Assembly: GCA_900545265.1 (NCBI GenBank)
Contig: UQYI01000003.1
Location: 8,932 to 72,931 of the forward strand
Direction: 5' to 3'
Length of the DNA stretch: 64,000 bases
From: an uncultured Eubacteriales bacterium
GTDB lineage: Bacteria; Bacillota; Clostridia; Christensenellales; CAG-138
In this document: in pieces, positions 4,739 to 54,029 of the stretch
Layout of the letters: the number at the start of each line of letters is the position of its first letter
How positions within the stretch are numbered: the stretch's first letter is position 1
Program-made: the position numbers and the translations under genes
Notes under the pieces: generated by a model
What the model saw: the letters and a program-made list of their open reading frames with translations, nothing else
Told to the model about the DNA's origin: nothing
Databases searched by the model: none

Positions 4739-5005
4739 GCGTGCACCCCGCTTCGTCGCCTGGTTCCCGGCTGGACCCCCGGACAGGTGGCTCCCCGCAG
4801 GAAGACTTGCGGCACACAAACCTATCCGCTTAGTGCTGCTTCCTTCCGGATCTGACACGGTTCACAGCGGTCTGTTGCACAAGACCCGCAGCTCAACACT
4901 CCTTATCCGGGCCATAACCCAAAACCATGCGCCTCAGACGGGGGATCCGGTCCTGCTGTAGCGGATTGCAGGTTCAGGGCACCGCTGATTCCCCACTTGG
5001 CACGC
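4739..5005 (-). ncRNA. ffs: Signal recognition particle RNA, long (Bacillus/Clostridium) type with Alu domain
   Basis: The minus strand contains the universal helix-8 motif GUCAGAUCCGGAAGGAAGCAGCACUAAG and an Alu-like 5' domain (GGUGCCCUGAACCUGCAAUCCGCUACAGCAGG). The 5' GCGUGCC pairs with the 3' GGUGCACGC. Length is about 267 nt, with its own promoter and a U-run. Confidence 0.85.
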
Positions 5006-17000: not shown

Positions 17001-17164
17001 GTTTTTCCCTCCGTTTGCTTTTGATTTAAGTATATCCGTCCGGCTGCCAAAGGCAAGCGTTATCTTCTTTCTGCAAAACATCTGTTTTTGCAGAAAGAAA
17101 GGAAACCGATCAAAAGGGCTGTTCAAAAGCCTTTCCGCATGCTATAGTAAGCATGTAAAGAAAA

Positions 17165-17236
17165 GCTCTCATATAGTTTCGCTGAAAACGGTGCGAAAGT
17201 TTCTACAGAGCCGCCGAAAGGCTCTGCTATGAGTGC
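17165..17236 (+). promoter_or_regulatory. Purine riboswitch aptamer, guanine/xanthine class (C discriminator)
   Basis: P1 is CUCAUA (17168-73) paired with UAUGAG (17228-33). J2/3 is GUUUCUAC. P3 is AGAGCC-GCCGAAA-GGCUCU, and J3/1 is GC with C at 17227. The pattern matches the xpt guanine aptamer and lies upstream of a guanine deaminase. Confidence 0.8.
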
Positions 17237-17276
17237 CCGGTATGGATACAGAGTTTCATACGGGCGCTTTTTCTTT
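17235..17276 (+). terminator. Intrinsic terminator forming the riboswitch expression platform
   Basis: GCCCGGUAUG...CAUACGGGC stem (one bulged G) followed by GCUUUUUCUUU, located 28 nt before the guaD start. Confidence 0.65.
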
Positions 17277-17303: not shown

Positions 17304-18560
17304 ATGATCCTGCTCAAAGGCAACATTCTGCACACCCCTGCACCGGGACAGCTGGAAGCCCTCCCCCATGGCGGTCTGCTTCTGGAGGAAGACGGCACCA
17401 TCCGCGCAGTGCTCTCCCATATCCCGGAAGGGTTGGAGGCCCGGGTCATTGACTATGGGGACAGGCTGCTGCTTCAGTCCTTCTGCGATATGCATCTGCA
17501 CGCCCCCCAGTACCCCATGCTGGGCATGGGAACGGATCTGCCCCTGCTTCAATGGCTCCACCGCTATGCTTACCCTACGGAGGCACGTTTTGCGGATACA
17601 GACTACGCCCGGCGGGTCTACCGGCAGCTGGCACAGGTGCTCATTGCCAGCGGCACCACCCGGGTATGCATGTTCTCTTCCCTCCATACCGACGCCACGC
17701 TGATCCTTATGGAAGAGTTGGAAAAGGCCGGAGTCACGGGCTTTGTGGGCAAAGTGAACATGGACAGAAATGGAGATCCCGCCCTGCAGGAGACCACGGA
17801 AGGCTCCAAGCGGGAGACCCTTCGCTGGCTGGAAGCCTGTACCGGATTCCGCTATGTACGGCCCATCCTGACCCCCCGGTTCACCCCTTCCTGCACCGAC
17901 GGGCTCATGGCCTTTTTAGGAGAGCTGGCGCAGGAGCGGGGATTGTATGTGCAATCCCATCTTTCCGAAAATAAAAACGAGGTGGAATGGGTGCGCACTC
18001 TCCACCCGGACTGCTCCCAGTACTGGCAGACCTACGCCAAATTCGGCCTGTGGAAAGAGCATACCCTTATGGCTCACTGCGTCCAGTGCGGAGAAGAAGA
18101 GATCCGTTCCATGGCAGAAAACGGGGTGATAGCCGTGCACTGCCCCGATTCCAACGTGAATATCTGCAGCGGCACAGCCCCCGTTCGCCATCTGCTGGAA
18201 AGCGGTGTATGGGTGACTCTGGGCAGCGATATTGCCGGCGGGGCGCAGCTGCCCATGAACCAGGTCATTACCGCCAGCATACGGGCCAGCAAGGTACGTC
18301 ACATGACGGATCCCGCCGCCCCGCCCTTTCTTACGGCAGCAGAGGGCTACTATCTGGGTGCCGCCTCCGGACACCGTTACTTCGGTGCCGGGCCGGGCTT
18401 TGCCCCGGGGGATAAGCTGCACGCTCTGGTGTTGGATGATTCCGCTTTCCCTGAGCCGGCTTCTCCGCTGTCCCTGCCGGAGCGGCTGGAGCGGGCGCTG
18501 TATCTCATGACTCCCGATTCCATCACCGCACGCTGGTCCGAAGGACGGCTGCTGCCGTAA
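17304..18560 (+). CDS. guaD: Guanine deaminase (amidohydrolase superfamily)
   Basis: Start at MILLKGNILHTP... (AAAGGAGG SD); the ORF track begins at 17229. The metal-binding motif DMHLHAPQYPMLGMG is present, and length and layout fit guanine deaminase. Riboswitch context supports the call. Confidence 0.75.
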   Translation: MILLKGNILHTPAPGQLEALPHGGLLLEEDGTIRAVLSHIPEGLEARVIDYGDRLLLQSFCDMHLHAPQYPMLGMGTDLPLLQWLHRYAYPTEARFADTDYARRVYRQLAQVLIASGTTRVCMFSSLHTDATLILMEELEKAGVTGFVGKVNMDRNGDPALQETTEGSKRETLRWLEACTGFRYVRPILTPRFTPSCTDGLMAFLGELAQERGLYVQSHLSENKNEVEWVRTLHPDCSQYWQTYAKFGLWKEHTLMAHCVQCGEEEIRSMAENGVIAVHCPDSNVNICSGTAPVRHLLESGVWVTLGSDIAGGAQLPMNQVITASIRASKVRHMTDPAAPPFLTAAEGYYLGAASGHRYFGAGPGFAPGDKLHALVLDDSAFPEPASPLSLPERLERALYLMTPDSITARWSEGRLLP

Positions 18561-19533: not shown

Positions 19534-20412
19534 TTACTCCGTCCAGGCATACAGAGGCGGTTTTCCCTCCAAACGCCGGGCGGCTGCATCCAGCTGCCGG
19601 CACATCCGCTCCTTATCCTTGGGCAAGCGGCCCCGGATGCGCAGGGATACGCAGTCATGGAATCCCTCATACTCCAGACTCTCCACCTTCAGATTTTCCA
19701 GCAGACAGCGTTCCTCCAGCAGGTTTTCCCGCTCATCAGCCGGAGAAAAAGTTCCGTTCTCCATGGAAGCATACAGCGGCGCCCTGCGATGCAGAAACAT
19801 GGAAAAGTTGATCACCGCCGCCGGGGCCGCAGCATTAAGAAATGCCGCCGTAGCCATGGCATTCTCCACGCCCCGGCCATGACCCGCCACGCCTGTCATA
19901 ATATGAGCCCCGTACTCCATGCCCGCCGCCCGCAGCCTGTCTGTCTGGATGCGTGCCTGTGCCAGCGTATGCCCCTTATGCATAAAGGCCAGCACATCTT
20001 CCAGTCCGCTTTCTATCCCCAGATACAACCGCTCCACCCCCATTTCCCGGAGCAGGCGCAGTTCTTCCTCGCTTTTCCCTGCCACGGCCGGGATGGTAGC
20101 ATCCATGCGGAAATGCTCTGCCTGAGGGAAATAACGGCGCACCATAGAAAGGATCCCGGTAAGCCGGTCCGTATCCATGGCAAAAGCGTTTCCGTCTCCC
20201 AGAAAGACACGCCGTGGATTGCCTCCCATCGCCTTTACCCGCAGGAGCTCCTTTTCTATCTGCTCCAAAGGCAGTTCCCGGTAGGCAAGATGTTTGAAAA
20301 GCATGCAGAACCGGCACCGGTTATAGGAACAGCCCACAGACACCGGCAGCATATAAGACCCCCGTTCCATGGGGCCCCGGCAGATCCAGCCTTCATATTC
20401 CATCTTTTTCAC
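19534..20412 (-). CDS. Radical SAM domain protein, function unknown
   Basis: 292-aa ORF with N-terminal cluster motif VSVGCSYNRCRFC. Note the CX4CX2C spacing. A TIM-barrel-like remainder follows (FLGDGNAF..., LYLGIESG). Confidence 0.7.
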   Translation of the reverse strand: MKKMEYEGWICRGPMERGSYMLPVSVGCSYNRCRFCMLFKHLAYRELPLEQIEKELLRVKAMGGNPRRVFLGDGNAFAMDTDRLTGILSMVRRYFPQAEHFRMDATIPAVAGKSEEELRLLREMGVERLYLGIESGLEDVLAFMHKGHTLAQARIQTDRLRAAGMEYGAHIMTGVAGHGRGVENAMATAAFLNAAAPAAVINFSMFLHRRAPLYASMENGTFSPADERENLLEERCLLENLKVESLEYEGFHDCVSLRIRGRLPKDKERMCRQLDAAARRLEGKPPLYAWTE

Positions 20413-20959: not shown

Positions 20960-22443
20960 ATGTAAAAAGAAAAGAATCGAAATCTTGTTTTTATCCTTTC
21001 CGTGTGCCTGACTCTGCTCATCTGTCTATGGAGCATACTGCTGCCGGATTCATTCGGCACGGCGGCAGGGAACAGCATGCGCTTTCTTACCACCAACTTT
21101 GCCTGGCTTTACTGCCTGGCCATGACCCTGTTCGTAGCGTTCTGCCTGTGGATAGGGTTGTTCTCCAAATACAGAAATATACCGCTGGGGCCGGACGGAG
21201 CCAAGCCGGAATACAGCAAAAGCGCCTGGTTCTCCATGCTCTTCTGCGCCGGTATGGGCGTAGGTCTGGTCTTTTGGGGAGCGGCAGAGCCCATGAACTA
21301 TTTTGCCGCGCCCATAGGCGGCCTGCAGAGCGGCACCGGCGAGGCCATGCGTTTTGTCTTTGCCCGCTCTTTTCTTCATTGGGGCATTCACCCCTGGGCC
21401 AATTATTCCGTGCTGGCGCTGGCACTGGCCTATATGCAGTTCCGCAAAGGGCAGCCGGGGCTCATCAGTTCCGTGTTCATCCCCCTCATCGGGGAAAAAA
21501 GAGCCCGAGGCTGGTTGGGAAAAACGGTGGATGTGCTCTCCGTCTTTGCTACGGCCGCAGGGGTAGCCACTTCTTTGGGGCTGGGGATCCTGCAGCTTAA
21601 CGCCGGGCTGCACTTTCTCACCGGGCTGCCGGAAACGGCTCTGGTACAGCTCTTATTCTGTTTCTGGCGGCGGTGTATATCCTTACGGCAGTAGTGGGCA
21701 TTGAAAAGGGCATGAACACCGTCAGCAAGCTGAATATCCGGGTCAGCATGGGCGTCCTGCTTCTGTTGGTGGTTATCGGCCCCACGGTGCCCATTCTCAA
21801 CAACCTGCTGAAAGGCGCAGGCGCCTATTTAAGCTCTCTGCTTTCCATGACTACAGAGGTAGGAGCCTTTGGAGACGAGGGTTGGTATCGCACCTGGACC
21901 GTATTCTATTGGGCCTGGTGGATTGCCTGGGCTCCCTTTACGGGCTCCTTTATAGCCAGGATCTCCCGCGGCCGCACCATTGGGGAATTTATAAAAGGCG
22001 TTATGTTCCTGCCCGCCGGTTTTTCGGTGATCTGGTTCACTGTATTCGGCACGCTTGGTATGCGCCTGGATATTTCCGTTGTCAAAGAAGCCATAAAGTC
22101 CACTTCCACCGCATTATTTGTGGTATTGCAGCAGTATCCCCTGGGCACGGTGCTGTGCGCCGTTATGGCGCTGCTGATCTTTACCTTTCTGGTCACGGCT
22201 TCCAACTCCGCTACCTATGTGCTGGGCATGTACAGTGAAGGGGGCACTTTGCAGCCTTCCAACAGGAGTAAGATCATATGGGGCGCTCTCATTGCGGCGC
22301 TGGCTGCGATAATGATGCTGGGCACGGGCAACGGCCTTTCCATGCTGCAAACCTTATCCATTGTGGCGGCCTTCCCCTTCATTTTCATCATGCTGGCAGC
22401 TATGCCCGCCCTTGTAAAGGCGCTGAAAGAAGAAAAGCTTTGA
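20960..22443 (+). pseudogene. BCCT-family (betaine/carnitine/choline) transporter, disrupted by a codon-2 TAA and a frameshift near 21650
   Basis: ATG 20960 is followed by TAA 20963. Family-like sequence occupies ORFs 21002-21694 and 21673-22443 in two frames (...FCAGMGVGLVFWGAAEP...; ...VFYWAWWIAWAPFTGSFIARISRGRTIGEF...). Confidence 0.8.
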
Positions 22444-22518: not shown

Positions 22519-23073
22519 TCAGTTTACAAGCCACTCCTTTTTCAATCGCCACAAGGCAGCCTGGAGATAAGCCAGTTCTTCCGGCGGGATCAGCAGATTC
22601 CGCCGCCAGCTGTTCAGTATTTCCTGCCTTTGCACCGGGTAAAAGGGCGTCAGGAACACCTGACTGCCGTGAAAAACGCCCACACAGCGCAGCTCTTTTT
22701 CAAAAGCCTCCTCCTCATCCTTTTCCTTGCCCAGATACGAAAGATTCAGCACCCTGTTCCAGCGGCGGCTGTCGAAAAACAGACAGTCTTTTCTGGGAAC
22801 ATTCAATACCAGCAGCTGTCCGTCTCCATATACGCCCGCTCCCAAAGCGGTTCCGTGGAGCCAGTAGGGAGACTCTTCTCCGGTTTCCGGCGGAATACGT
22901 TCTGCCATCAGTTCCCGAAAAAATCCATAAGCGATTTGAAAGCTTTTGGCCTCTGCTCCATATTTTTCTGCTACATATGCCTTTTTGACTTGTACAATGC
23001 CGTCTTTTTGCAGAGCTGCCGCCACGGCATCCGCCTGACGGGTATACAGAAGAATACAGCTTTCACGCTCCAT
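22519..23073 (-). CDS. DUF3841-like protein (paralogue B)
   Basis: 184-aa ORF with ...ESPYWLHG...LLVLNVPRKDCLFFDSRRWNRVLN...WRLKKEWL. It shares a motif pattern with the adjacent paralogue. The family assignment is from memory. Confidence 0.55.
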   Translation of the reverse strand: MERESCILLYTRQADAVAAALQKDGIVQVKKAYVAEKYGAEAKSFQIAYGFFRELMAERIPPETGEESPYWLHGTALGAGVYGDGQLLVLNVPRKDCLFFDSRRWNRVLNLSYLGKEKDEEEAFEKELRCVGVFHGSQVFLTPFYPVQRQEILNSWRRNLLIPPEELAYLQAALWRLKKEWLVN

Positions 23074-23647
23074 AGACCGCTCCTCTCAGCCACTCCCGTT
23101 TCAGCTCCCATACGGTGCCCTGGCACAGTCCGCTGCCGGTAGCAGGGTCCTCAAAGACCCTGTCCCAGCTTTGTATGATCTTCCGCTTCAGCAGCGGATA
23201 AAAGTTCCCCTTTCCGGTCTGGATAAGGGCCGTCTCATTGCCGATGCCGTTGCGCTTAAGCTCTGCTTCGTGGGCATCCCGATCCTTTTCATCCAGAGGG
23301 ATATACAGATAGTTCACCCGGTATCCCCAGCGCTCCACATCCGTCAGCACCACAAGATCCCGTGGGATCTCCAGTTCCAGACACACGCTGCCCGGCAGGG
23401 ACGGCAGTTTGTTTTCCTCCTCCAGAAACAGCCAGATGGGGTACTCCGCCCCCTCCGGGCGGGGTACCAGTCTTTCGGCATGACGGACGTACCAGTCATA
23501 CAGCTCCAGGTAATATTGACTGATAGCCCCGCTCTTTTCCTCGATATGGCTTTTTTGTACCCGGTACACACCTGTCTGTTCCAATGTTTTCAGAACCTGG
23601 GGATGCTGGCGGGTATAGGCCCGCAAGGTCTTTCCTGATAATTCCAT
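23063..23647 (-). CDS. DUF3841-like protein (paralogue A)
   Basis: Start at MELSGKTLRAYTRQHPQVL... (GAAGGAG SD); the ORF track extends to 23929. Motifs seen: YDWYVRHAERL...AEYPIWLFL...LELEIPRDLVVLTDVERWGYRVN...VWELKREWL. Confidence 0.6.
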   Translation of the reverse strand: MELSGKTLRAYTRQHPQVLKTLEQTGVYRVQKSHIEEKSGAISQYYLELYDWYVRHAERLVPRPEGAEYPIWLFLEEENKLPSLPGSVCLELEIPRDLVVLTDVERWGYRVNYLYIPLDEKDRDAHEAELKRNGIGNETALIQTGKGNFYPLLKRKIIQSWDRVFEDPATGSGLCQGTVWELKREWLRGAVYGA

Positions 23648-23733: not shown

Positions 23734-25042
23734 TTATATTTTCACCTTGAATACGGTCTGTTCCGTAATATCCGTGGCCAGTGCTTCCAAAGCCACGCCC
23801 ACCCGGTGATACCGCAGCTTCCACCGCTCTGCCGCCGGAGCATTTGGATCTCCCAGCGGATAGGGAATGGAAATGGTCGGCACGATCCGGTTGGCCCCTA
23901 CGGTCAGGGACACGGGGATCAGGTTGCACATATGCACAATGGGGAACCCTGCCTTTTCAAACTCTTTTACCATCGTTGCACCGCAACGCGTACAGGTGCC
24001 TCATGTGGAGCCCATAATAATGGCGGTTACCCCGTCTTCCTGCAAAAAGGGAATCATCTCGCCGGGCCTCAGCCTCAGTAGTGCCTGTGCCTACGGTGGA
24101 ATAGAACCAGTTATGGAGCCGGCCGATCTTTCCTTCCCGTTCATAGGCGCGCATGGCATCCAGCGGCACGATCACGTTGGGGTCGGCGTTGGCGGCAGCC
24201 GGGTCAAAGCCGGCGTGGATGGTTTTGAACTGACCGGCGCTGAGACGCTCCATACCGGAAACGTCATAGCGTCCCCAGCGGGTAGCAGAGGCGGACTGGA
24301 TGCGATCCGGATTATCCACAGGAACGATGCCGCCGGTAGTCACCAGTGCCACCACCGCCTTGGAAAGATCCCGGATGGCCGGTGCAATGGGCACCATCTC
24401 CTTTTCGGGAATGATGAGCTCCGTCTGATAGGGCAGCTTGTTCATCTTTTGGATGAGCATCTGCACCCTGCGGTAAGCGGCGGTATTCTCCCTGATATTC
24501 TCCAGAAATTTTTCGTGCCGGCAGCCCCGGGGGAAGTATCCCTCTGCCAAGGCGCCCTCATTGGGCAGCCCCTGCAGGAGCTTATTGGCAAAGGCGGCCA
24601 TTGCTTTTACATCCTGACGCATCTTTACGGCTCCGTTGCCGCCCTTAAAAATGATCACATCCCGCTTGAACATTTCCACACCGGGGTTTTCTTCGTTCAT
24701 GGAAGTGATCACGGGGATATGGAGCCGTTCCTTCACCGCTTTGCATATGTTGCCGCAGGCCACGCCGTAACGCCCTGCCTGAAAGGCGGGTCCGGCAATA
24801 AACAGATCGCAGGGTTTATCCTGCAGCATATCCATGATCCGGGAAAGAGCCTCTTCCGTATGAGAGCCCATAAAGTTGTCGCCGCAAACCACGGTGTGCG
24901 TGATCTCGGCTCCCTTGAGCGCCGCCTTGAAAGCCATGCCGGGGCCCACCACGCCCTCCATGATATAGGGCTCCTGGTCTGCCTTATCCTCTCCGCCCAC
25001 ACCGGCGAAGAACTGATTGAGATAACAGATAACCTTCTTCAT
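23734..25042 (-). pseudogene. Glycine/sarcosine/betaine reductase component B selenoprotein subunit (GrdB/GrdF/GrdH family), with Sec-UGA and an apparent frameshift
   Basis: N-terminal part is MKKVICYLNQFFAGVGGEDKADQEPYIMEG... (ORF 23957-25042). The Sec motif IIMGST-UGA-GTCTRCGATMVKEFEKAGFP lies in another frame, with UGA at 24003-24001, and that frame continues to the stop at 23734. Confidence 0.8.
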
Positions 25043-25053
25043 GCCGCACCTCC

Positions 25054-25584
25054 TTAATATTCGATCATGGTCTTGACGGAGAACCCGGAGATATGATCCC
25101 CGCAGAACCAGTTGTTATCCTCCATGATAATGGAGCCGTCGTCCCTGGCGGATTTGCCCAGCTTTTCATCGTAGCCCCAGCTGCCGGACATACCGTCCCG
25201 GTTCATGGCCTCCAGATTACCTATGACCGTCTTGCAGGCGGGCAATTCCGTAAGTTCCGAAACATTCCCCGTAGAAACCAGAGCGTTCATCTTGGCGTCC
25301 AGCGTTACCAGCGGCTGGGAGAAGCCGTCCCGTCCGGTGCATTCGTTAGAAATGCCTACCACGGGGATCCCCGCATCCTCCAGAATCACCTGACAGCGGA
25401 CGTAATCGGTGTCGGGGTTGCCGTATCCCTCTTCGGTGACGATGGCATAATCCACACCCAGGTTTATGCATCCTTTTCTCCCAGGCAGACGGATCTTACC
25501 TGAAAATTCCCTATTTTGAGTTTCAAAGCAGTAACTCCTTTCTTGCGTGTGGTAATGGGGGACTCGATAACTTTCGGAGAGCAT
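25054..25584 (-). pseudogene. C-terminal remnant of a GrdE/GrdI-type reductase proprotein subunit
   Basis: 176-aa ORF. ...LGVDYAIVTEEGYGNPDTDYVRCQVILEDAGIPVVGISNECTGRDGFSQPL... matches only the C-terminal third of the family. The N-terminal two thirds are missing here. Confidence 0.7.
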
Positions 25585-25753: not shown

Positions 25754-26419
25754 ATGGGACGACCCAAACTGAAACAGACGGCCAGCGATGCCATCAAGCA
25801 GCGCCTTATTGAAAGCACCCGCAAACGCATCAAAGCGGAGGGGCTCTCCGGTGTGACCATCCGGAGCATCGCCCAGGACGCATCGCTGAACAGTGCCGTT
25901 TTATACAAGTATTTTGAGAATCTGGATGAACTGCTGCTCTTTGCCTGTGTGGATACTCTACGGGACTATACGGCAGCCCTGCTGGAAGCCGAAGCCAGCA
26001 CCGAAGCTTTCACGCCCCGGGAACGGTATATGACCAGCTGGACGCTGTTCTGCCGCCATGCGTTTTCAAACCCGGAAAGCATACGGCACCTGTTTTTCAG
26101 CGCCCAGAGTGCCCGGCTTAAACCGGTGATCCAGGAATACTACCGGCTGTTTCCCGGTGAGTTGGGCGATATGCCCCAATGCCTGCAGCAAATGCTGCTG
26201 GAAGCGGATCTCAGCTGCCGAAACCTGGCGGTTCTTCAACTGGTTCTGGAGGGAAAGATACCGCCCCATGAACTGGTGCTGCGAAACGAGTTGACCATCG
26301 CCGCCTTTTATATGCTTTTGACCCAGCGCATCCAATTCCCGGATCAATACCCGGCAGAACGGCAGCAGGCCCGAATGCTGGAAGCCTGCGCTGCTCTTTT
26401 GCGGCCCTTTGCCGAATAA
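25754..26419 (+). CDS. TetR/AcrR family transcriptional regulator
   Basis: 221-aa ORF with the N-terminal HTH GLSGVTIRSIAQDASLNSAVLYKYFENLDEL. Confidence 0.8.
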   Translation: MGRPKLKQTASDAIKQRLIESTRKRIKAEGLSGVTIRSIAQDASLNSAVLYKYFENLDELLLFACVDTLRDYTAALLEAEASTEAFTPRERYMTSWTLFCRHAFSNPESIRHLFFSAQSARLKPVIQEYYRLFPGELGDMPQCLQQMLLEADLSCRNLAVLQLVLEGKIPPHELVLRNELTIAAFYMLLTQRIQFPDQYPAERQQARMLEACAALLRPFAE

Positions 26420-30521: not shown

Positions 30522-31817
30522 ATGGAAATTGCCCGCATACTGGAAAAGCTTAAAGAGTCCCCCTGCACCTGGAACTATTTCGGTCCCCCTTCGGAAGAGG
30601 TTTTTGCCGTAAGTCTTACCGGTTCCGGCGCTCATTTTCACTCCGGTGTACTGTACTCAACACCACGGATCGTTACCAGTATGCCCATCTGTATGAAAAC
30701 ATGTGCATCCTGGTCACGGAGCCCTATCATGCTTCCCGCCTTTTTGAGATCGTCCAGCAGCGGCTTTTCTTCCGGGGATACGACCCTGATCACCGCCTGC
30801 CGCCCGAATGCTTTTCTTATGCGGCTGCAAAACAGTCCCTTTATGCTTTTGGAACCGGGAGATGGATTGGATCCCCTGCCCCGGCGTATGCTGTATATGC
30901 GTATCTGTCAGGAACAGGCAGATATACTTCTGTTCACCGCAGAGCAGGAAAACAGCTTTGCAGATACGGATGCTGCCTCCAGGCTGGCCGCCCTGCGCGA
31001 AGCATTCGCCAGCATTCCCTTGAAGCAGGAGCACCTTTGTCCGCAGCTGCAGCTGCAGAACCTGCTGTTCCGGCTGCTGCAAAACAAGCCTTCCAATGAA
31101 GAGGATATCAAAAAGCAGCTGACTGCGCTGGGCTGGACTTTTTATGAAAAATACTATGTGCTGGCCATCTACCGAAAGCTGCAGAACTGCCCCGGCTCTC
31201 TGGCGGAGGAGATCTCCCATATTCTGGGGGAAAAGGTGTATGAATTTGGGGATTATTACATCAGTATCCTCCATTCGGACTGGAAAACGGAGCTGTATGC
31301 GCTTTTCGGGCGCAATTTCCCCGAGCTTAAAGCCCTGATCCAGCGCACGGATATGTATGCTTCCCTGAGTTACGGCTTTTTTGACATTATCAACGCCGCC
31401 ACCGCCATGAAGCAGGCTACCCGCTGCATCGAGATCATCCGCAAATTCAGCTGGTCACAGCGCATCAACGGCTACGGGGATATGGTCATCTCCCACCTGA
31501 TCGATACCGCTCTGGCCTGCGGAGAGATCACACTGGACAGCGTATGCCACCCCATTGCACTGAAGATCAGGGAATACGATGACAAAAACGGTACGGATCT
31601 GCTGGATGTGCTGGCCACTTACATTTATTCCGGCTTGTCCGTAAAAATCTCCTCCGAATATCTGCATATGCATATCAACACCGTATATCAGCGGATACAC
31701 AAGCTGGAAGAGGATTTCGACATTGATTTCAGTGACCGGCGCATTGTCACCATGCTCCATATCTCCATCATTGCCATGGCCTACCGGGGAGATTACCCCG
31801 CCGACCGGTATCTGTAA
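30522..31817 (+). CDS. PucR/CdaR-family transcriptional regulator, with a possible internal out-of-frame stretch
   Basis: Start at MEIARILEKLKES (AGGAGA SD). The C-terminal PucR HTH reads LLDVLATYIYSGLSVKISSEYLHMHINTVYQRIHKLEEDF. Residues ~47-110 look non-protein-like, whereas an alternative frame looks coding. Confidence 0.65.
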   Translation: MEIARILEKLKESPCTWNYFGPPSEEVFAVSLTGSGAHFHSGVLYSTPRIVTSMPICMKTCASWSRSPIMLPAFLRSSSSGFSSGDTTLITACRPNAFLMRLQNSPFMLLEPGDGLDPLPRRMLYMRICQEQADILLFTAEQENSFADTDAASRLAALREAFASIPLKQEHLCPQLQLQNLLFRLLQNKPSNEEDIKKQLTALGWTFYEKYYVLAIYRKLQNCPGSLAEEISHILGEKVYEFGDYYISILHSDWKTELYALFGRNFPELKALIQRTDMYASLSYGFFDIINAATAMKQATRCIEIIRKFSWSQRINGYGDMVISHLIDTALACGEITLDSVCHPIALKIREYDDKNGTDLLDVLATYIYSGLSVKISSEYLHMHINTVYQRIHKLEEDFDIDFSDRRIVTMLHISIIAMAYRGDYPADRYL

Positions 31818-31950: not shown

Positions 31951-32770
31951 TCACTTTGCAGCGGACGGTCCCTGGTCATGCAGGAGCCGCCGCTGTTTTT
32001 TATATACACCGTTCACCAGCAGCAGCGAAAGCAGCGTGGCAGCGGCACAGAAAAGATAGTATCCGGTATAGCTGCCGGTCGCATCCGCCAACAGCCCCGG
32101 CAGCGGAGACATGCACAGCCCGCCCAGAGTACAGCAGGACTGAAGCTTTTTCAGTGTGGAGGCATACTGGGCTTCATCCGTCAGTTCCGCCACCCACATG
32201 GGGGTTCCTACGGTGCTGATGGTAAAGCAGCCCAGCCCCAGACATATGGCCACCGCATATACCGGCAAAGGCGATATGCCGTTGAAGCATACCACGCCCA
32301 CATGGCCCAGTATCAGCATCCCGTAATACAGCAGGTTGGCTTTTTCCACACCCATGGCGTCTGCCGCCACGCCGTAAAGGGGCTTGCCTACCATGTTCAT
32401 AAGGCCGTTAAGGGCCATGACGGAGCTGACAAACACCACGTCATACCCGGCCGCAATGGTTGAAAAGTTAAAATTATCCCAGCTGCAATAGGTAAAGAAG
32501 CCTGCGCAGACCATGGCAATGCCAAGCAGGAGCACTACCTGCTTCCCTACCGGGGGAAGCTTTTTCTTTTCTTTCTGAACGGAATGTTCCCACGCCCCAT
32601 AGGGTGCCAGCTGCAGCGCCTCCGGGCTTTCCCGCAGGAAAAGGAGCACCACCAGCCCCAGCAGGGCAAAGAGCCCGCCCATGATCAGTTCCGCCGTCAG
32701 AACACCTTTTTCGGATACGATCCCGGTAACGGGTACAGACAGAAGCAGCGAAGTCACTCCTGAGCTCATG
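31951..32770 (-). pseudogene. MFS transporter, 5'-truncated and fused in frame to the reductase remnant
   Basis: This is the C-terminal ~270 aa of ORF 31951-32952. It has 2 TM helices, a central loop (RESPEALQLAPYGAWEHSVQKEKKKLPPVGK) and 6 TM helices. About 4 N-terminal TM helices are absent. The junction position is approximate (32766-32787). Confidence 0.65.
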
Positions 32771-33149
32771 GCACATATAAAGGGCACATCCTCTTTGGGA
32801 TCGGCATTTTCGGCTACAAACACCAGGTTGATGAGCTTTGCATAGGGAGACATCTCGGCCGCCGGGCCGGACATATCCACCATACCGTTCATGCCCTGCC
32901 GGCTGTGCAGCCCGGCGCCCAGCACGCACATACCGTCCAGTGCGTAGGTCACGCCGCTGCCTTGACGGGAATGATGCGGGTGCTGTCTCCCGGCCGGGCA
33001 ATGTGCAGGGAAACGTTTTTCAATTTTCCGTCCTTATTCAGCGCCTCTATGGCTTCTTCCCGGTTTACGGTGAGGATCCCGTCCGCAAAGGCGTTTTCTT
33101 CACCGAACCGAACGTCTTTGACGCTGAAATGTCCGATCTCCAATTTCAT
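32771..33149 (-). pseudogene. N-terminal remnant of a GrdE/GrdI-type reductase proprotein subunit, in two frames
   Basis: MKLEIGHFSVKDVRFGEENAFADGILTVNREEAIEALNKDGKLKNVSLHIARPGDSTRIIPVK is followed by a stop. Family-like sequence then resumes in another frame: GSGVTYALDGMCVLGAG...GMVDMSGPAAEMSPYAKLINLVFVAE. Confidence 0.7.
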
Positions 33150-52690: not shown

Positions 52691-53809
52691 TCAGATTAGA
52701 TTCTTTCCGGTTTCGGCAGAGAACAGGTGCACCAGTTCCCCGTTGACGCCCAGCGTAAGGGCTGTGCCATAGGGATAGCCTCCCCGATGCTCAGCCTGAA
52801 GTCGGGTGATGGGGATGCGGATAACCGTGTCCCGGCCATGGCACTGGGCATGCACATACAGTTCGCTGCCCATCATTTCGCACACATCCACCTTGGCAGG
52901 GAGCGTGTTCTCTCCGGCTTCTGCAGCCAGATCCGTATGCTCGGGACGGATACCCAGCACGATGGCCTGGGACTCTACGTTCTGCGCCTTCAGGGCATTC
53001 TGCTTGCTTTCGGGCAGACGGATGATATCCCCTTCCAGATCCACGTAATAGCCGGTTTCATCCTTCTTGAGCTGCGCATCGAAGAAATTCATTTGCGGCG
53101 TACCGATAAAGCCGGCGACAAACTGGTTGGCGGGATGATCGAACACCTCGCTGGGGGTGCCGATCTGCTGGATGTAGCCATCTTTCATAATAACAATACG
53201 ATCCCCCAGCGTCATGGCTTCGGTCTGATCATGAGTAACGTATACAAAAGTGGTGTTGACCCGCTGACGCAGCTTGATAATCTCGGCACGCATCTGATTG
53301 CGGAGCTTGGCATCCAGGTTGGAAAGAGGCTCGTCCATCAAAAAGACCTGCGGATCCCGGACGATGGCCCGGCCGATGGCTACACGCTGGCGCTGGCCGC
53401 CGGAAAGGGCTTTGGGCTTTCTGTCCAGATACTGGGTGATGTCCAGAATCTCTGCGGCGGCCCGAACCTTTTTGTCGATCTCGGCCTTGGGCGTCTTGCG
53501 CAACTTCAGGGCAAAAGCCATGTTCTCATACACGGTCATGTGGGGATAGAGGGCATAGTTCTGGAATACCATGGCGATATCCCGATCTTTGGGCGCTACA
53601 TCGTTGACCAGCTTGTCGCCGATGTACAGTTCCCCTTCTGAGATCTCTTCCAGGCCTGCGATCATACGCAGAGTAGTGGATTTGCCGCAGCCGGAAGGGC
53701 CAACCAGCACGATAAATTCCTTGTCGGCGATCTCCAGATTAAAATCATGAACCGCCACCACATTCTTGTCGTAGATCTTCTTGATGTTTTTCAGGGACAA
53801 AGTTGCCAT
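52691..53809 (-). CDS. msmK: Sugar ABC importer ATP-binding protein (MsmK/MalK/UgpC type), orphan
   Basis: Start at MATLSLKNIKKIYD...; the ORF track extends to 53896. It has Walker A GPSGCGKST, signature LSGGQRQR, Walker B VFLMDEPLSNLD, and a C-terminal regulatory/TOBE-like domain. No permease or binding-protein gene is adjacent. Confidence 0.9.
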   Translation of the reverse strand: MATLSLKNIKKIYDKNVVAVHDFNLEIADKEFIVLVGPSGCGKSTTLRMIAGLEEISEGELYIGDKLVNDVAPKDRDIAMVFQNYALYPHMTVYENMAFALKLRKTPKAEIDKKVRAAAEILDITQYLDRKPKALSGGQRQRVAIGRAIVRDPQVFLMDEPLSNLDAKLRNQMRAEIIKLRQRVNTTFVYVTHDQTEAMTLGDRIVIMKDGYIQQIGTPSEVFDHPANQFVAGFIGTPQMNFFDAQLKKDETGYYVDLEGDIIRLPESKQNALKAQNVESQAIVLGIRPEHTDLAAEAGENTLPAKVDVCEMMGSELYVHAQCHGRDTVIRIPITRLQAEHRGGYPYGTALTLGVNGELVHLFSAETGKNLI

Positions 53810-54029
53810 TGGGTCTTGTTCATGGCAAAAGAGCCTCCGCTGATTTGCCTTGCCGCCGGGAAGCTGCCTCCCGAAAGCTTTACGACAGGTCTCCACGCTG
53901 CCGCACCGCTGAACAAAGCGGGTTCTCTCCTTTCACGATTCCCCTCAGGGCATGAAGTGGAGTGCCGAAAGGGGGCTGAAATAGATAAGTACAAAAAGTC
54001 TGCAAAAGCAATCCTTTCTGCCTGTTTAC

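What the first reader, a model, noticed from the sequence alone, without database searches (positions are those of the whole stretch)
23734..25042. Selenoprotein-B-type reductase gene keeps its UGA-Sec codon and a downstream hairpin, but the frame breaks ~20 codons upstream
ORF 23957-25042 (MKKVICYLNQFFAGVGGEDKADQEPYIMEG...) is the N-terminal ~330 aa of the GrdB/GrdF/GrdH family. The family's selenocysteine motif appears in a different frame: EMIPFLQEDGVTAIIMGST-UGA-GTCTRCGATMVKEFEKAGFPIVHMCNLIPVSLTVGANRIVP. The UGA is at 24003-24001 on the minus strand, and this frame runs to the stop at 23734. Just 3' of the UGA the mRNA can form GCACC-N12-GGUGC (23999-23978), which is where a bacterial SECIS would sit. 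The Sec frame is closed upstream by TAG (24093-24091). The first frame loses family similarity after ...STVGTGTTEAEARR (~24062). The shift therefore lies in 24058-24090. My recollection of homologues suggests a few residues are missing there, which would fit a small out-of-frame deletion. ORF callers would split this gene regardless, because of the UGA.
Basis: partly seen in the sequence, partly recalled or inferred. Interest (0 to 1): 0.55.

Follow-up and report, generated by a model that had tools for sequence, protein, structure and literature searches.

The report
Dead betaine-reductase selenoprotein gene (grdH)
This is a genuine, recently inactivated copy of a selenium-dependent betaine-reductase gene in an uncultured Clostridia-type bacterium. 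An 11-base deletion broke it, and its partner gene and its transporter gene are broken too, so it is an ordinary pseudogene, though in a locus that is decaying in parallel across strains.

Summary
On the minus strand, 25042..23957 encodes residues 1-328 of a GrdH-type selenoprotein B. The +1 frame carries the rest, with TGA-Sec at 24003-24001 in a U-x-x-C-x-x-C motif and the stop at 23734.

The break is an 11-nt deletion (GTATGGCACGG) between 24061 and 24060, relative to an intact allele 98% identical to this one. It is not an assembly error: the exact frameshifted product occurs in 249 index blocks of independent public assemblies.

A SECIS is present and intact (Rfam SECIS_4, 62.5 bits, 24000..23963).

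The gene is dead in context:
- The adjacent alpha-subunit gene (grdI) has an 856-nt internal deletion.
- The linked BCCT transporter has a nonsense codon and a 4-nt deletion.
- Other lineages of the same species carry different lesions in these three genes. Six neighbouring control genes had one indel in about 190 gene copies.
- Only one of 31 loci examined has all three genes intact.
- Nonsynonymous polymorphism is elevated in grdH.

Verdict: a real, polymorphic pseudogene in a betaine-reductase locus undergoing parallel decay. It is a known family and a known kind of event, of modest interest. The main practical point is that grdH is counted as a trimethylamine marker gene.

The parts
23734..25042 (-). 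grdH pseudogene as a whole (betaine-reductase-type selenoprotein B). It has two reading frames joined by an 11-nt deletion.
   Evidence: The intact allele L011 translates to 350 aa + U + 88 aa.
23957..25042 (-). Frame-0 ORF of 361 aa. Residues 1-328 are GrdH. The last 33 residues are out-of-frame read-through (DDSLFAGRRGN...).
   Evidence: NCBIfam GrdH profile 1-324, 551.8 bits. Pfam GRDB 487 bits. Alignment with intact alleles.
24060..24061 (-). Junction of the 11-nt deletion (GTATGGCACGG missing, with 1-nt positional ambiguity), inside codon 328. It removes M-A-R and shifts the frame by +1.
   Evidence: DNA alignments with L010, L011 and L031. Protein P0001 reads ...EAEARRMAREMIPF....
23734..24090 (-). 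The +1 frame carrying the C-terminal part of GrdH (EMIPFLQEDG...ST-U-GTCTRCGATM...KVKI-stop). It opens after TAG 24093-24091.
   Evidence: NCBIfam GrdH profile 328-435, 202.7 bits.
24001..24003 (-). TGA selenocysteine codon of the U-x-x-C-x-x-C motif.
   Evidence: A TGA stands at the same position in all 16 distinct homologous sequences examined.
23963..24000 (-). Bacterial SECIS element (Rfam SECIS_4). Core hairpin: CGUUGC 23988-23983, loop GGU 23982-23980, GCAACG 23979-23974. In the 42 nt from the UGA onward, which include the core hairpin, it is identical to the intact allele.
   Evidence: (62.5 bits, gathering score 38, model 1-38/38). The synonymous sites of CGT-TGC-GGY-GCA-ACG are almost invariant across homologues of 57-100% identity.
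25054..25526 (-). grdI (component B alpha-subunit) pseudogene. Only 62 nt of the 5' end (25526-25465) and 411 nt of the 3' end (25464-25054, called as a 176-aa ORF 25584..25054) remain. An 856-nt out-of-frame internal deletion has its junction at 25465/25464.
   Evidence: Pfam Gly_reductase matches only profile positions 297-425/426. The full-length gene is 442 aa in L011, L038-43 and L012-15. Alignments.
20960..22443 (+). BCCT (betaine-type) transporter pseudogene. It has a CAA>TAA nonsense at codon 2 (20963-20965) and a 4-nt deletion at 21654/21655 that splits it into ORFs 21002-21694 and 21673-22443.
   Evidence: Pfam BCCT profile 7-223 and 230-485 on two ORFs. Alignments. The intact gene is 487-495 aa in L011 and L038-43.
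22519..23647 (-). Two DUF3841 genes (23647..23063 and 23073..22519) between grdH and BCCT. Both are intact here. Elsewhere, a 10-nt deletion affects the first gene in L044-46 and shorter versions of the second occur in its protein cluster.
   Evidence: Pfam DUF3841 on the second gene and precomputed Pfam hits for both genes in the related loci. Indel catalogues. Cluster lengths. The same pair sits next to grdIH in the 81%-identity relatives.
25754..26419 (+). TetR-family regulator, divergent from grdI-grdH and intact. It is possibly the regulator of the locus (inference).
   Evidence: Precomputed Pfam TetR_N (weak) hit on the identical 221-aa product in related loci. NCBI names the same protein a TetR family transcriptional regulator. 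No indels in the 29 loci that include it.

Best explanation
This is a true, recently formed pseudogene of grdH. grdH encodes the selenocysteine-containing beta subunit of a betaine-reductase-type 'component B', which reductively cleaves betaine to trimethylamine plus an acetyl unit.

An 11-nt deletion in codon 328, 23 codons before the Sec codon of the intact gene, puts the catalytic UxxCxxC region out of frame. Translation yields a 361-aa product without the active site.

The UGA and the SECIS are still perfect only because the lesion is young. The strain's allele differs from an intact one by about 1.5% of bases.

The gene cannot be working through any rescue mechanism, because its obligate partner gene grdI has lost 856 of 1329 nt and the linked betaine-type BCCT transporter is also broken.

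Across the species the three genes grdI, grdH and BCCT carry many different, independently arisen lesions, while their neighbours are almost untouched. Selection on this pathway has therefore been relaxed, or reversed, species-wide.

Shown: the lesions, their reality, their distribution, the family membership and the SECIS. Inferred: loss of enzymatic function, and relaxed selection as the cause.
For: (1) Family membership. The intact allele scores 778.2 bits against the betaine_GrdH cut-off of 775.

(2) The deletion is defined at base level against intact alleles of the same locus and synteny, at 98.5% DNA identity over 11.4 kb.

(3) It is not an artefact. The exact 361-aa product is in 249 index blocks and at least 117 contigs from ENA, NCBI and Logan, on contigs whose names follow several different conventions. 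Nine such loci are 99.9-100% identical to the window.

(4) Partner and transporter are dead: an 856-nt deletion in grdI, and Q2* plus a 4-nt deletion in BCCT.

(5) Parallel decay in 31 loci of the species (30 fetched plus the window).
- grdH: del11, del22@992, ins1@996 (with del1@89 and del1@1097), del1@1001, and one large 3' deletion.
- grdI: the 856-nt deletion, an 809-nt deletion, W223*, and a stop at codon 109.
- BCCT: del4, del11, del1@270, del1@1450, Q2*, and one large deletion.
- Controls: the six control genes (GATase examined only in the first 25 loci) show one singleton indel in HGD-D and one 10-nt deletion in DUF3841a shared by L044-46.
- Only L011 has all three genes intact.

(6) pN/pS is 0.65 for grdH and 0.56 for BCCT, against 0.10-0.24 for four neighbours. 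Fisher p=0.0026. Inside the del11 clade grdH has 4 nonsynonymous and 1 synonymous changes, against 4 and 18 in the neighbouring HGD-D gene.

(7) Sister species at 77-81% identity keep an uninterrupted 350-aa N part up to the UGA. The 81%-identity loci also keep a 442-aa GrdI and the 79-aa C-terminal ORF.
Against: - The SECIS, the UGA and the whole C-terminal frame are undamaged in this strain, so coding capacity for a Sec-containing C-terminal fragment formally persists.
- pN/pS rests on small counts, and one control gene (radical SAM) is also high at 0.73.
- One common lineage (the P0123 allele, 88 blocks) keeps an intact grdH despite the grdI deletion. This could mean grdH retains some value without grdI.
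- No expression or activity data exist.
- The presence of GrdA, GrdC, GrdD, thioredoxin and the SelABCD machinery in this genome could not be checked.
Confidence: 0.9

Rival explanations
1. Sequencing or assembly error: the gene is really intact and the 11-nt gap is an artefact of this assembly.
For: Frameshifts in single assemblies do occur in this data set, for example singleton splits of HGD-D in L031, H+-PPase in L037 and the amidohydrolase in L034.
Against: The identical frameshifted protein is indexed in 249 blocks and at least 117 contigs from independent samples and pipelines. Nine fetched loci carry exactly the same junction. An 11-nt loss in non-repetitive sequence is not a typical sequencing error.
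Confidence: 0.01
2. Programmed +1 ribosomal frameshift: the ribosome shifts near 24061 and makes a full-length selenoprotein that is three residues shorter.
For: The downstream frame, the UGA and the SECIS are intact. The allele is the commonest in the species. SD-like GAGG motifs lie just upstream (24076-24067).
Against: - The shift is a derived deletion that is absent from other alleles and from all relatives, which read straight through.
- There is no slippery or stop-codon pause motif of the prfB type. The frame-0 stop is 33 codons further on.
- The partner subunit gene is destroyed in the same strain.
- Other lineages carry different frameshifts of different phase (-22, +1, -1) in the same stretch. 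That fits damage, not a conserved signal.
Confidence: 0.03
3. Gene fission: the N domain (361 aa) and a separately initiated 106-residue Sec-containing C-terminal peptide are both made and assemble. The peptide would start at ATG 24057-24055, with GAGG 9 nt upstream.
For: The ATG and a GAGG at suitable spacing exist. The C-terminal frame is undamaged.
Against: - The ATG is simply the Met of the ancestral ...REMIPF... sequence.
- No relative is split there.
- grdI is deleted and BCCT is broken.
- The nonsynonymous excess in grdH argues against maintained function.
Confidence: 0.04

Closest known systems
GrdH, betaine reductase selenoprotein B (NCBIfam NF040795; described for Eubacterium/Peptoclostridium acidaminophilum, from my own knowledge)
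   Same: It is the best-scoring family for both halves. It shares the length (439 codons in the intact allele), the Sec in a UxxCxxC motif, a SECIS directly 3' of the UGA, an adjacent alpha-subunit gene and a betaine-type BCCT transporter.
   Different: In the window the frame is broken by an 11-nt deletion, grdI is gutted and the transporter is broken. Even the intact allele only just reaches the curated cut-off (778.2 against 775), so the substrate (betaine or a related amine) is not certain. No grdA, grdC, grdD or trx genes lie nearby.
GrdB / GrdF (glycine and sarcosine reductase selenoprotein B; TIGR01917, NF040794) and PrdB
   Same: They belong to the same superfamily (TIGR01918, PF07355) and share the active-site motif.
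   Different: Their scores are clearly lower and below the curated cut-offs: GrdF 559.5 against 800, GrdB 485.9 against 602, PrdB 74.8 against 300.
Rfam SECIS_4 (RF01990)
   Same: The match is full-length, 38/38 positions, at 62.5 bits, with the consensus 6-bp stem and GGU loop 12 nt after the UGA.
   Different: Nothing differs in the element itself. Here it sits in a gene whose ribosomes arrive in the wrong frame, so it has nothing to recode.
Independent selenoprotein loss under relaxed constraint (for example in insects, PMC2500217, known here by title and abstract)
   Same: A selenoprotein function is inactivated repeatedly and independently in related lineages.
   Different: This case is within one bacterial species, is caught while still polymorphic, and affects a whole three-gene module rather than the Sec machinery.
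prfB-type programmed +1 frameshifting
   Same: A +1 change of frame would be needed, and SD-like GAGG motifs lie upstream.
   Different: There is no shift-site or stop-codon motif and no conservation. The state is derived and lineage-specific.

Membership tests
GrdB/GrdF/GrdH selenoprotein B family (TIGR01918 / PF07355) | Profile match above the curated cut-off | tested here: met
   TIGR01918 scores 458.3 bits (cut-off 65.45) on the N part and 174.4 bits on the C part. PF07355 scores 487 bits.
GrdB/GrdF/GrdH selenoprotein B family (TIGR01918 / PF07355) | In-frame UGA (Sec) in the UxxCxxC active-site motif | tested here: met
   ST-TGA-GTCTRCG at 24003-24001, in the C-terminal frame. The same motif is present in all homologues examined.
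GrdB/GrdF/GrdH selenoprotein B family (TIGR01918 / PF07355) | SECIS element immediately 3' of the UGA | tested here: met
   Rfam SECIS_4, 62.5 bits against a gathering score of 38, window 24000..23963.
GrdB/GrdF/GrdH selenoprotein B family (TIGR01918 / PF07355) | One uninterrupted reading frame from the start codon through the UGA to the stop, as a functional gene requires | tested here: not met
   An 11-nt deletion at 24061/24060 shifts the frame. By descent it is a member of the family, but as a pseudogene.
Betaine-specific GrdH (NCBIfam NF040795) | Whole-protein score of at least 775 bits | tested here: inconclusive
   The window's fragments score 551.8 and 202.7 bits separately. The intact allele of the same species scores 778.2 bits, barely above the cut-off.
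Betaine reductase component B (GrdH + GrdI) | Adjacent intact alpha-subunit gene (Gly_reductase family, about 440 aa) | tested here: not met
   Only profile positions 297-425 remain in the 176-aa ORF. An 856-nt deletion separates it from the 442-aa version in L011.
Grd reductase complex / selenoprotein synthesis | GrdA, GrdC, GrdD, the thioredoxin system and selA, selB, selC, selD present in the genome | not testable with these tools
   None were found in the 64-kb window. There are no tRNA genes. No Sel, GrdA, GrdC, GrdD or thioredoxin families appear among about 45 ORFs scanned with Pfam. The rest of the genome is not available.
Programmed +1 ribosomal frameshift genes | The frameshift is conserved in orthologues and has a recognisable shift site | tested here: not met
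   Orthologues and other alleles are unshifted. No stop or slippery motif lies at the junction.

The most novel reading that the evidence does not exclude
The loss may not be neutral decay. On this reading, knock-outs of betaine reduction (grdI, grdH, BCCT) are being repeatedly selected in a widespread, probably gut-dwelling Clostridia species. Possible drivers are selenium scarcity, loss of the Grd core or Sec machinery, or a cost of the pathway. A local indel hotspot would help: four independent frameshifts fall in 983-1001 of the 1320-nt gene, just 5' of the Sec codon, and two independent deletions fall at nt 680-696 of BCCT. That would be a natural case of recurrent adaptive loss of a trimethylamine-forming selenoenzyme, still segregating with a rare intact haplotype.
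Probability: 0.2. Interest if true: 0.5.

Novelty: new member of a known kind. Interest (0 to 1): 0.3.

Why it matters
For annotation, this gene should be labelled a pseudogene. It should not be 'rescued' as a selenoprotein by Sec-aware gene finders merely because its UGA and SECIS are perfect.

For microbiome work, grdH is used as a marker gene for trimethylamine-forming potential in gut metagenomes and amplicon assays (PMC6964529). That pipeline uses a frameshift-tolerant step, FrameBot. A widespread species whose grdH, grdI and transporter are mostly dead would be counted as a potential producer although it almost certainly is not.

For evolution, the locus is a clean, still-polymorphic example of parallel pathway decay. 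It has a rare intact haplotype for comparison, and could be used to ask whether selenoenzyme loss is neutral or selected.

Tried and rejected
It returned only relatives of at most 81% identity. The organism is therefore known only as 'Eubacteriales/Clostridiales bacterium' MAGs, from names attached to identical neighbouring proteins.
- Thermodynamic folding of the post-UGA region is uninformative. The z-scores run from +0.3 to -1.7.
The paired fractions are 92.7% and 98.9%, with one compensatory pair for the Rfam outer helix. I prefer the Rfam stem because of the curated model hit and the near-invariance of synonymous sites in CGT-TGC-GGY-GCA-ACG.
- The assembly-error, programmed-frameshift and gene-fission readings were considered and rejected (see rival explanations).
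- The apparent indel hotspot cannot be separated from ascertainment bias. The alleles were found through a cluster of near-full-length N-part products, which favours late lesions.
- A literature search for described grdB or grdH pseudogenes found nothing specific.
- The metagenome-contig scan, structure prediction and fold search were not used, because the sequence evidence was already decisive.

Full report
**1. The observation**

The minus strand of 23734-25042 was read and translated in all three frames.

- Frame 0 (ATG 25042) gives a 361-aa ORF that ends at 23957.
- The +1 frame opens after TAG 24093-24091. It reads ...GEMIPFLQEDGVTAIIMGST-TGA-GTCTRCGATMVKEFEKAG... to the stop at 23736-23734.
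- The TGA is at 24003-24001, and GCACC-N12-GGTGC lies at 23999-23978.

**2. Family**

- Residues 3-328 of the ORF match NCBIfam betaine_GrdH profile positions 1-324 of 435 (551.8 bits). They also match the umbrella selenoprotein-B model TIGR01918 (458.3 bits, cut-off 65.45) and Pfam GRDB (487 bits).
- The +1-frame part matches GrdH positions 328-435 (202.7 bits).
- Only about three profile positions are missing between the two parts.
- GrdF, GrdB and PrdB score clearly lower.
- The intact allele found later scores 778.2 bits against the curated GrdH cut-off of 775. The call is therefore 'betaine-reductase-type selenoprotein B', with the substrate not fully certain.

**3. The lesion and whether it is real**

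An exact-sequence look-up shows that the 361-aa frameshifted product is indexed in 249 blocks of public assemblies. The 79-aa C-terminal ORF is indexed in 276 blocks. Nine fetched loci are 99.9-100% identical to the window over 7 kb, and a tenth (L005) is about 98-99.5% identical. The frameshift is therefore not an error of this assembly.

A protein search found a 350-aa allele, P0001, at 98% identity that reads ...EAEARRMAREMIPFLQEDG...ST up to the UGA. Its contig L011 has the same gene order and is 98.5% identical in DNA over 11.4 kb. In L011 the gene is uninterrupted: 350 codons, TGA, then 88 codons.

Base-level alignment shows that the window lacks GTATGGCACGG between 24061 and 24060, inside codon 328.

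**4. The SECIS**

Rfam's SECIS_4 model matches 24000..23963 over its full length (62.5 bits, gathering score 38, E=1e-14). It is the only SECIS in the window.

- Its consensus core is a 6-bp stem, CGUUGC/GCAACG, closing a GGU loop and beginning 12 nt after the UGA (23988-23974).
The two cannot both form.
- Across 16 distinct homologous sequences the codons CGT-TGC-GGY-GCA-ACG are almost invariant at synonymous sites, whereas the four codons before them vary freely. This points to an RNA-level constraint on the Rfam stem.
- Pair counting cannot separate the two structures statistically. Folding energies are no better than those of shuffled sequence.
- The 42 nt from the UGA onward, which include the core hairpin, are identical to the intact allele.

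**5. Context: the rest of the module is dead too**

- **grdI.** The ORF just upstream (25584..25054, 176 aa) matches only positions 297-425 of the 426-position Gly_reductase profile. Against L011, whose GrdI is 442 aa, the window has an 856-nt out-of-frame internal deletion with its junction at 25465/25464.
- **BCCT.** The transporter at 20960-22443 (+) is split by a 4-nt deletion at 21654/21655. It also has CAA>TAA at codon 2. Its intact form scores best with the glycine-betaine-uptake BCCT model, at 559 bits, which is below that model's cut-off of 650.
- **Neighbours.** The two DUF3841 genes, the TetR regulator and the double-cubane reductase gene around them are intact.

**6. Population picture**

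I fetched 30 loci of the same species-level cluster (about 98-100% DNA identity). Together with the window they make 31 loci, and I catalogued all lesions against L011.

| Gene | Independent lesions seen |
|---|---|
| grdH | del11@983 (window lineage and L005); del22@992 (L044-46); del1@89 + ins1@996 + del1@1097 (L038-43; this allele is in 75 blocks); del1@1001 (L047-49); a large 3' deletion (L036) |
| grdI | 856-nt deletion (window lineage and L031-37); 809-nt deletion plus del1 (L005); W223* (shown in L010, L045 and L049; the 205-aa second ORF in L047-48 suggests the same stop); stop at codon 109 (L044, L046) |
| BCCT | Q2*; del4@696; del11@680/684; del1@270; del1@1450; ins4@938; a large deletion |

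- grdH is intact in L010, L011 and L031-35 and L037 (this allele is in 88 blocks).
- The six control genes show one singleton 1-nt deletion (HGD-D in L031) and one 10-nt deletion shared by L044-46 (DUF3841a) in about 190 gene copies. GATase was examined only in the first 25 loci.
- Only L011 has grdI, grdH and BCCT all intact.
- Relatives at 81% protein identity keep a 442-aa GrdI, a 350-aa N part, a 79-aa C part and, where the contig reaches it, a 501-aa BCCT. The 77%-identity relative was checked only for the uninterrupted N part.

**7. Selection**

Segregating-site counts give the following pN/pS values.

| Gene | pN/pS | Counts |
|---|---|---|
| grdH | 0.65 | 17 nonsynonymous, 8 synonymous |
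| BCCT | 0.56 | |
| HGD-D | 0.10 | |
| GATase | 0.17 | |
| TetR | 0.23 | |
| DUF3841b | 0.24 | |
| Radical-SAM gene | 0.73 | unexplained |

- Fisher's exact test of grdH against the four low controls gives p=0.0026.
- Within the del11 clade, grdH has 4 nonsynonymous and 1 synonymous changes, against 4 and 18 in HGD-D.
- The counts are small, but they point the same way as the lesion catalogue.

**8. Mechanism and rival readings**

The best explanation is a young, genuine pseudogene in a three-gene betaine-reductase module that is decaying in parallel in many lineages of one species.

- **Assembly error** is excluded by point 3.
- **A programmed +1 frameshift** is very unlikely. The shift is derived and lineage-specific, and other lineages carry frameshifts of other phases in the same stretch. 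No shift-site or stop motif is present, and the partner subunit gene is gone.
- **Separate translation** of a Sec-containing C-terminal peptide from ATG 24057 (GAGG 9 nt upstream) cannot be formally excluded. However, that ATG is merely the ancestral Met of ...REMIPF..., and again the partner subunit is missing.

**9. What is not settled**

- Whether the genome still has GrdA, GrdC, GrdD, thioredoxin and the SelABCD machinery could not be tested. None is in the window.
- Four independent grdH indels fall in nt 983-1001 and two BCCT deletions fall in nt 680-696. This looks like a hotspot, but the way the alleles were found favours late lesions.
- The allele mosaic implies recombination or recurrence. 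The same grdI deletion occurs with an intact or a broken grdH, and the same grdH deletion occurs with two different grdI deletions.
- The organism is known only as an uncultured 'Eubacteriales/Clostridiales bacterium'. That it is a gut species is my inference from the MAG and sample labels.

**10. Comparison, novelty and score**

This is a pseudogenised member of a well-known selenoprotein family with a textbook SECIS, so it is not new in kind. What is mildly notable is the caught-in-the-act, multi-allelic decay of the whole module in a widely sampled species. There is also a practical consequence: grdH is used as a marker for trimethylamine-forming potential (PMC6964529), so such copies inflate gene-count estimates. 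Interest is 0.3.

Noticed in passing
window 31951-33149 (-): There is a second relic of a Gly_reductase (GrdE/G/I-family) gene. The 66-aa ORF 33149..32949 matches PF09338 positions 1-65. Residues 2-52 of the next ORF (32952..31951) match positions 94-143 and then run into the C-terminal half of an MFS transporter. This looks like a deletion fusion. In the L038 and L042 loci the corresponding gene is called as one 424-aa product carrying both Pfam families.
   Followed up: partly
window 20960-22443 (+): The betaine-type BCCT transporter is a pseudogene here (Q2* at 20963-20965 and a 4-nt deletion at 21654/21655). Different lesions occur in other lineages, and the gene is intact in L010, L011, L038-43 and L044-46.
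   Followed up: yes
grdH gene nt 983-1001 (window about 24040-24062) and BCCT gene nt 680-696 (window about 21640-21660): Independent indels from different lineages cluster within about 20-40 nt in both genes. grdH has del11, del22, ins1 and del1. BCCT has del4 and del11. This may be a mutational hotspot or an ascertainment effect.
   Followed up: partly
L005, L031-L037 compared with the window (grdI junction at 25464/25465): The alleles form a mosaic. The identical 856-nt grdI deletion occurs with both a broken and an intact grdH. L005 combines the 11-nt grdH deletion with a different, 809-nt grdI deletion. This suggests recombination between lineages.
   Followed up: partly
window 30522-31817 (+): The PucR-type (HTH_30) regulator is intact here at 431 aa. 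Truncated versions of 219, 362, 371, 199 and 316 aa are common in its 90% cluster, so it is another polymorphically decaying gene next to the grd relics.
   Followed up: no
window 22519-23647 (-); L012-L015: A pair of DUF3841 genes sits next to grdI-grdH both here and in the 81%-identity relatives. Both are intact here. Elsewhere in the species, L044-46 carry a 10-nt deletion in the first gene, and shorter versions of the second are in its protein cluster. This is a possible functional link of unknown nature.
   Followed up: no
window 17149-17249 (+); 53804-53980 (-); 4739-5005 (-): A purine riboswitch lies directly upstream of the amidohydrolase / guanine-deaminase gene (17304-18560). The window also holds a malK-I RNA next to an ABC ATPase gene of MalK type, and the large SRP RNA.
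   Followed up: no
window 19534-20403 (-): The radical-SAM gene used as a control has an unexpectedly high pN/pS (0.73; 18 nonsynonymous and 8 synonymous sites) although it has no indels in any locus.
   Followed up: no
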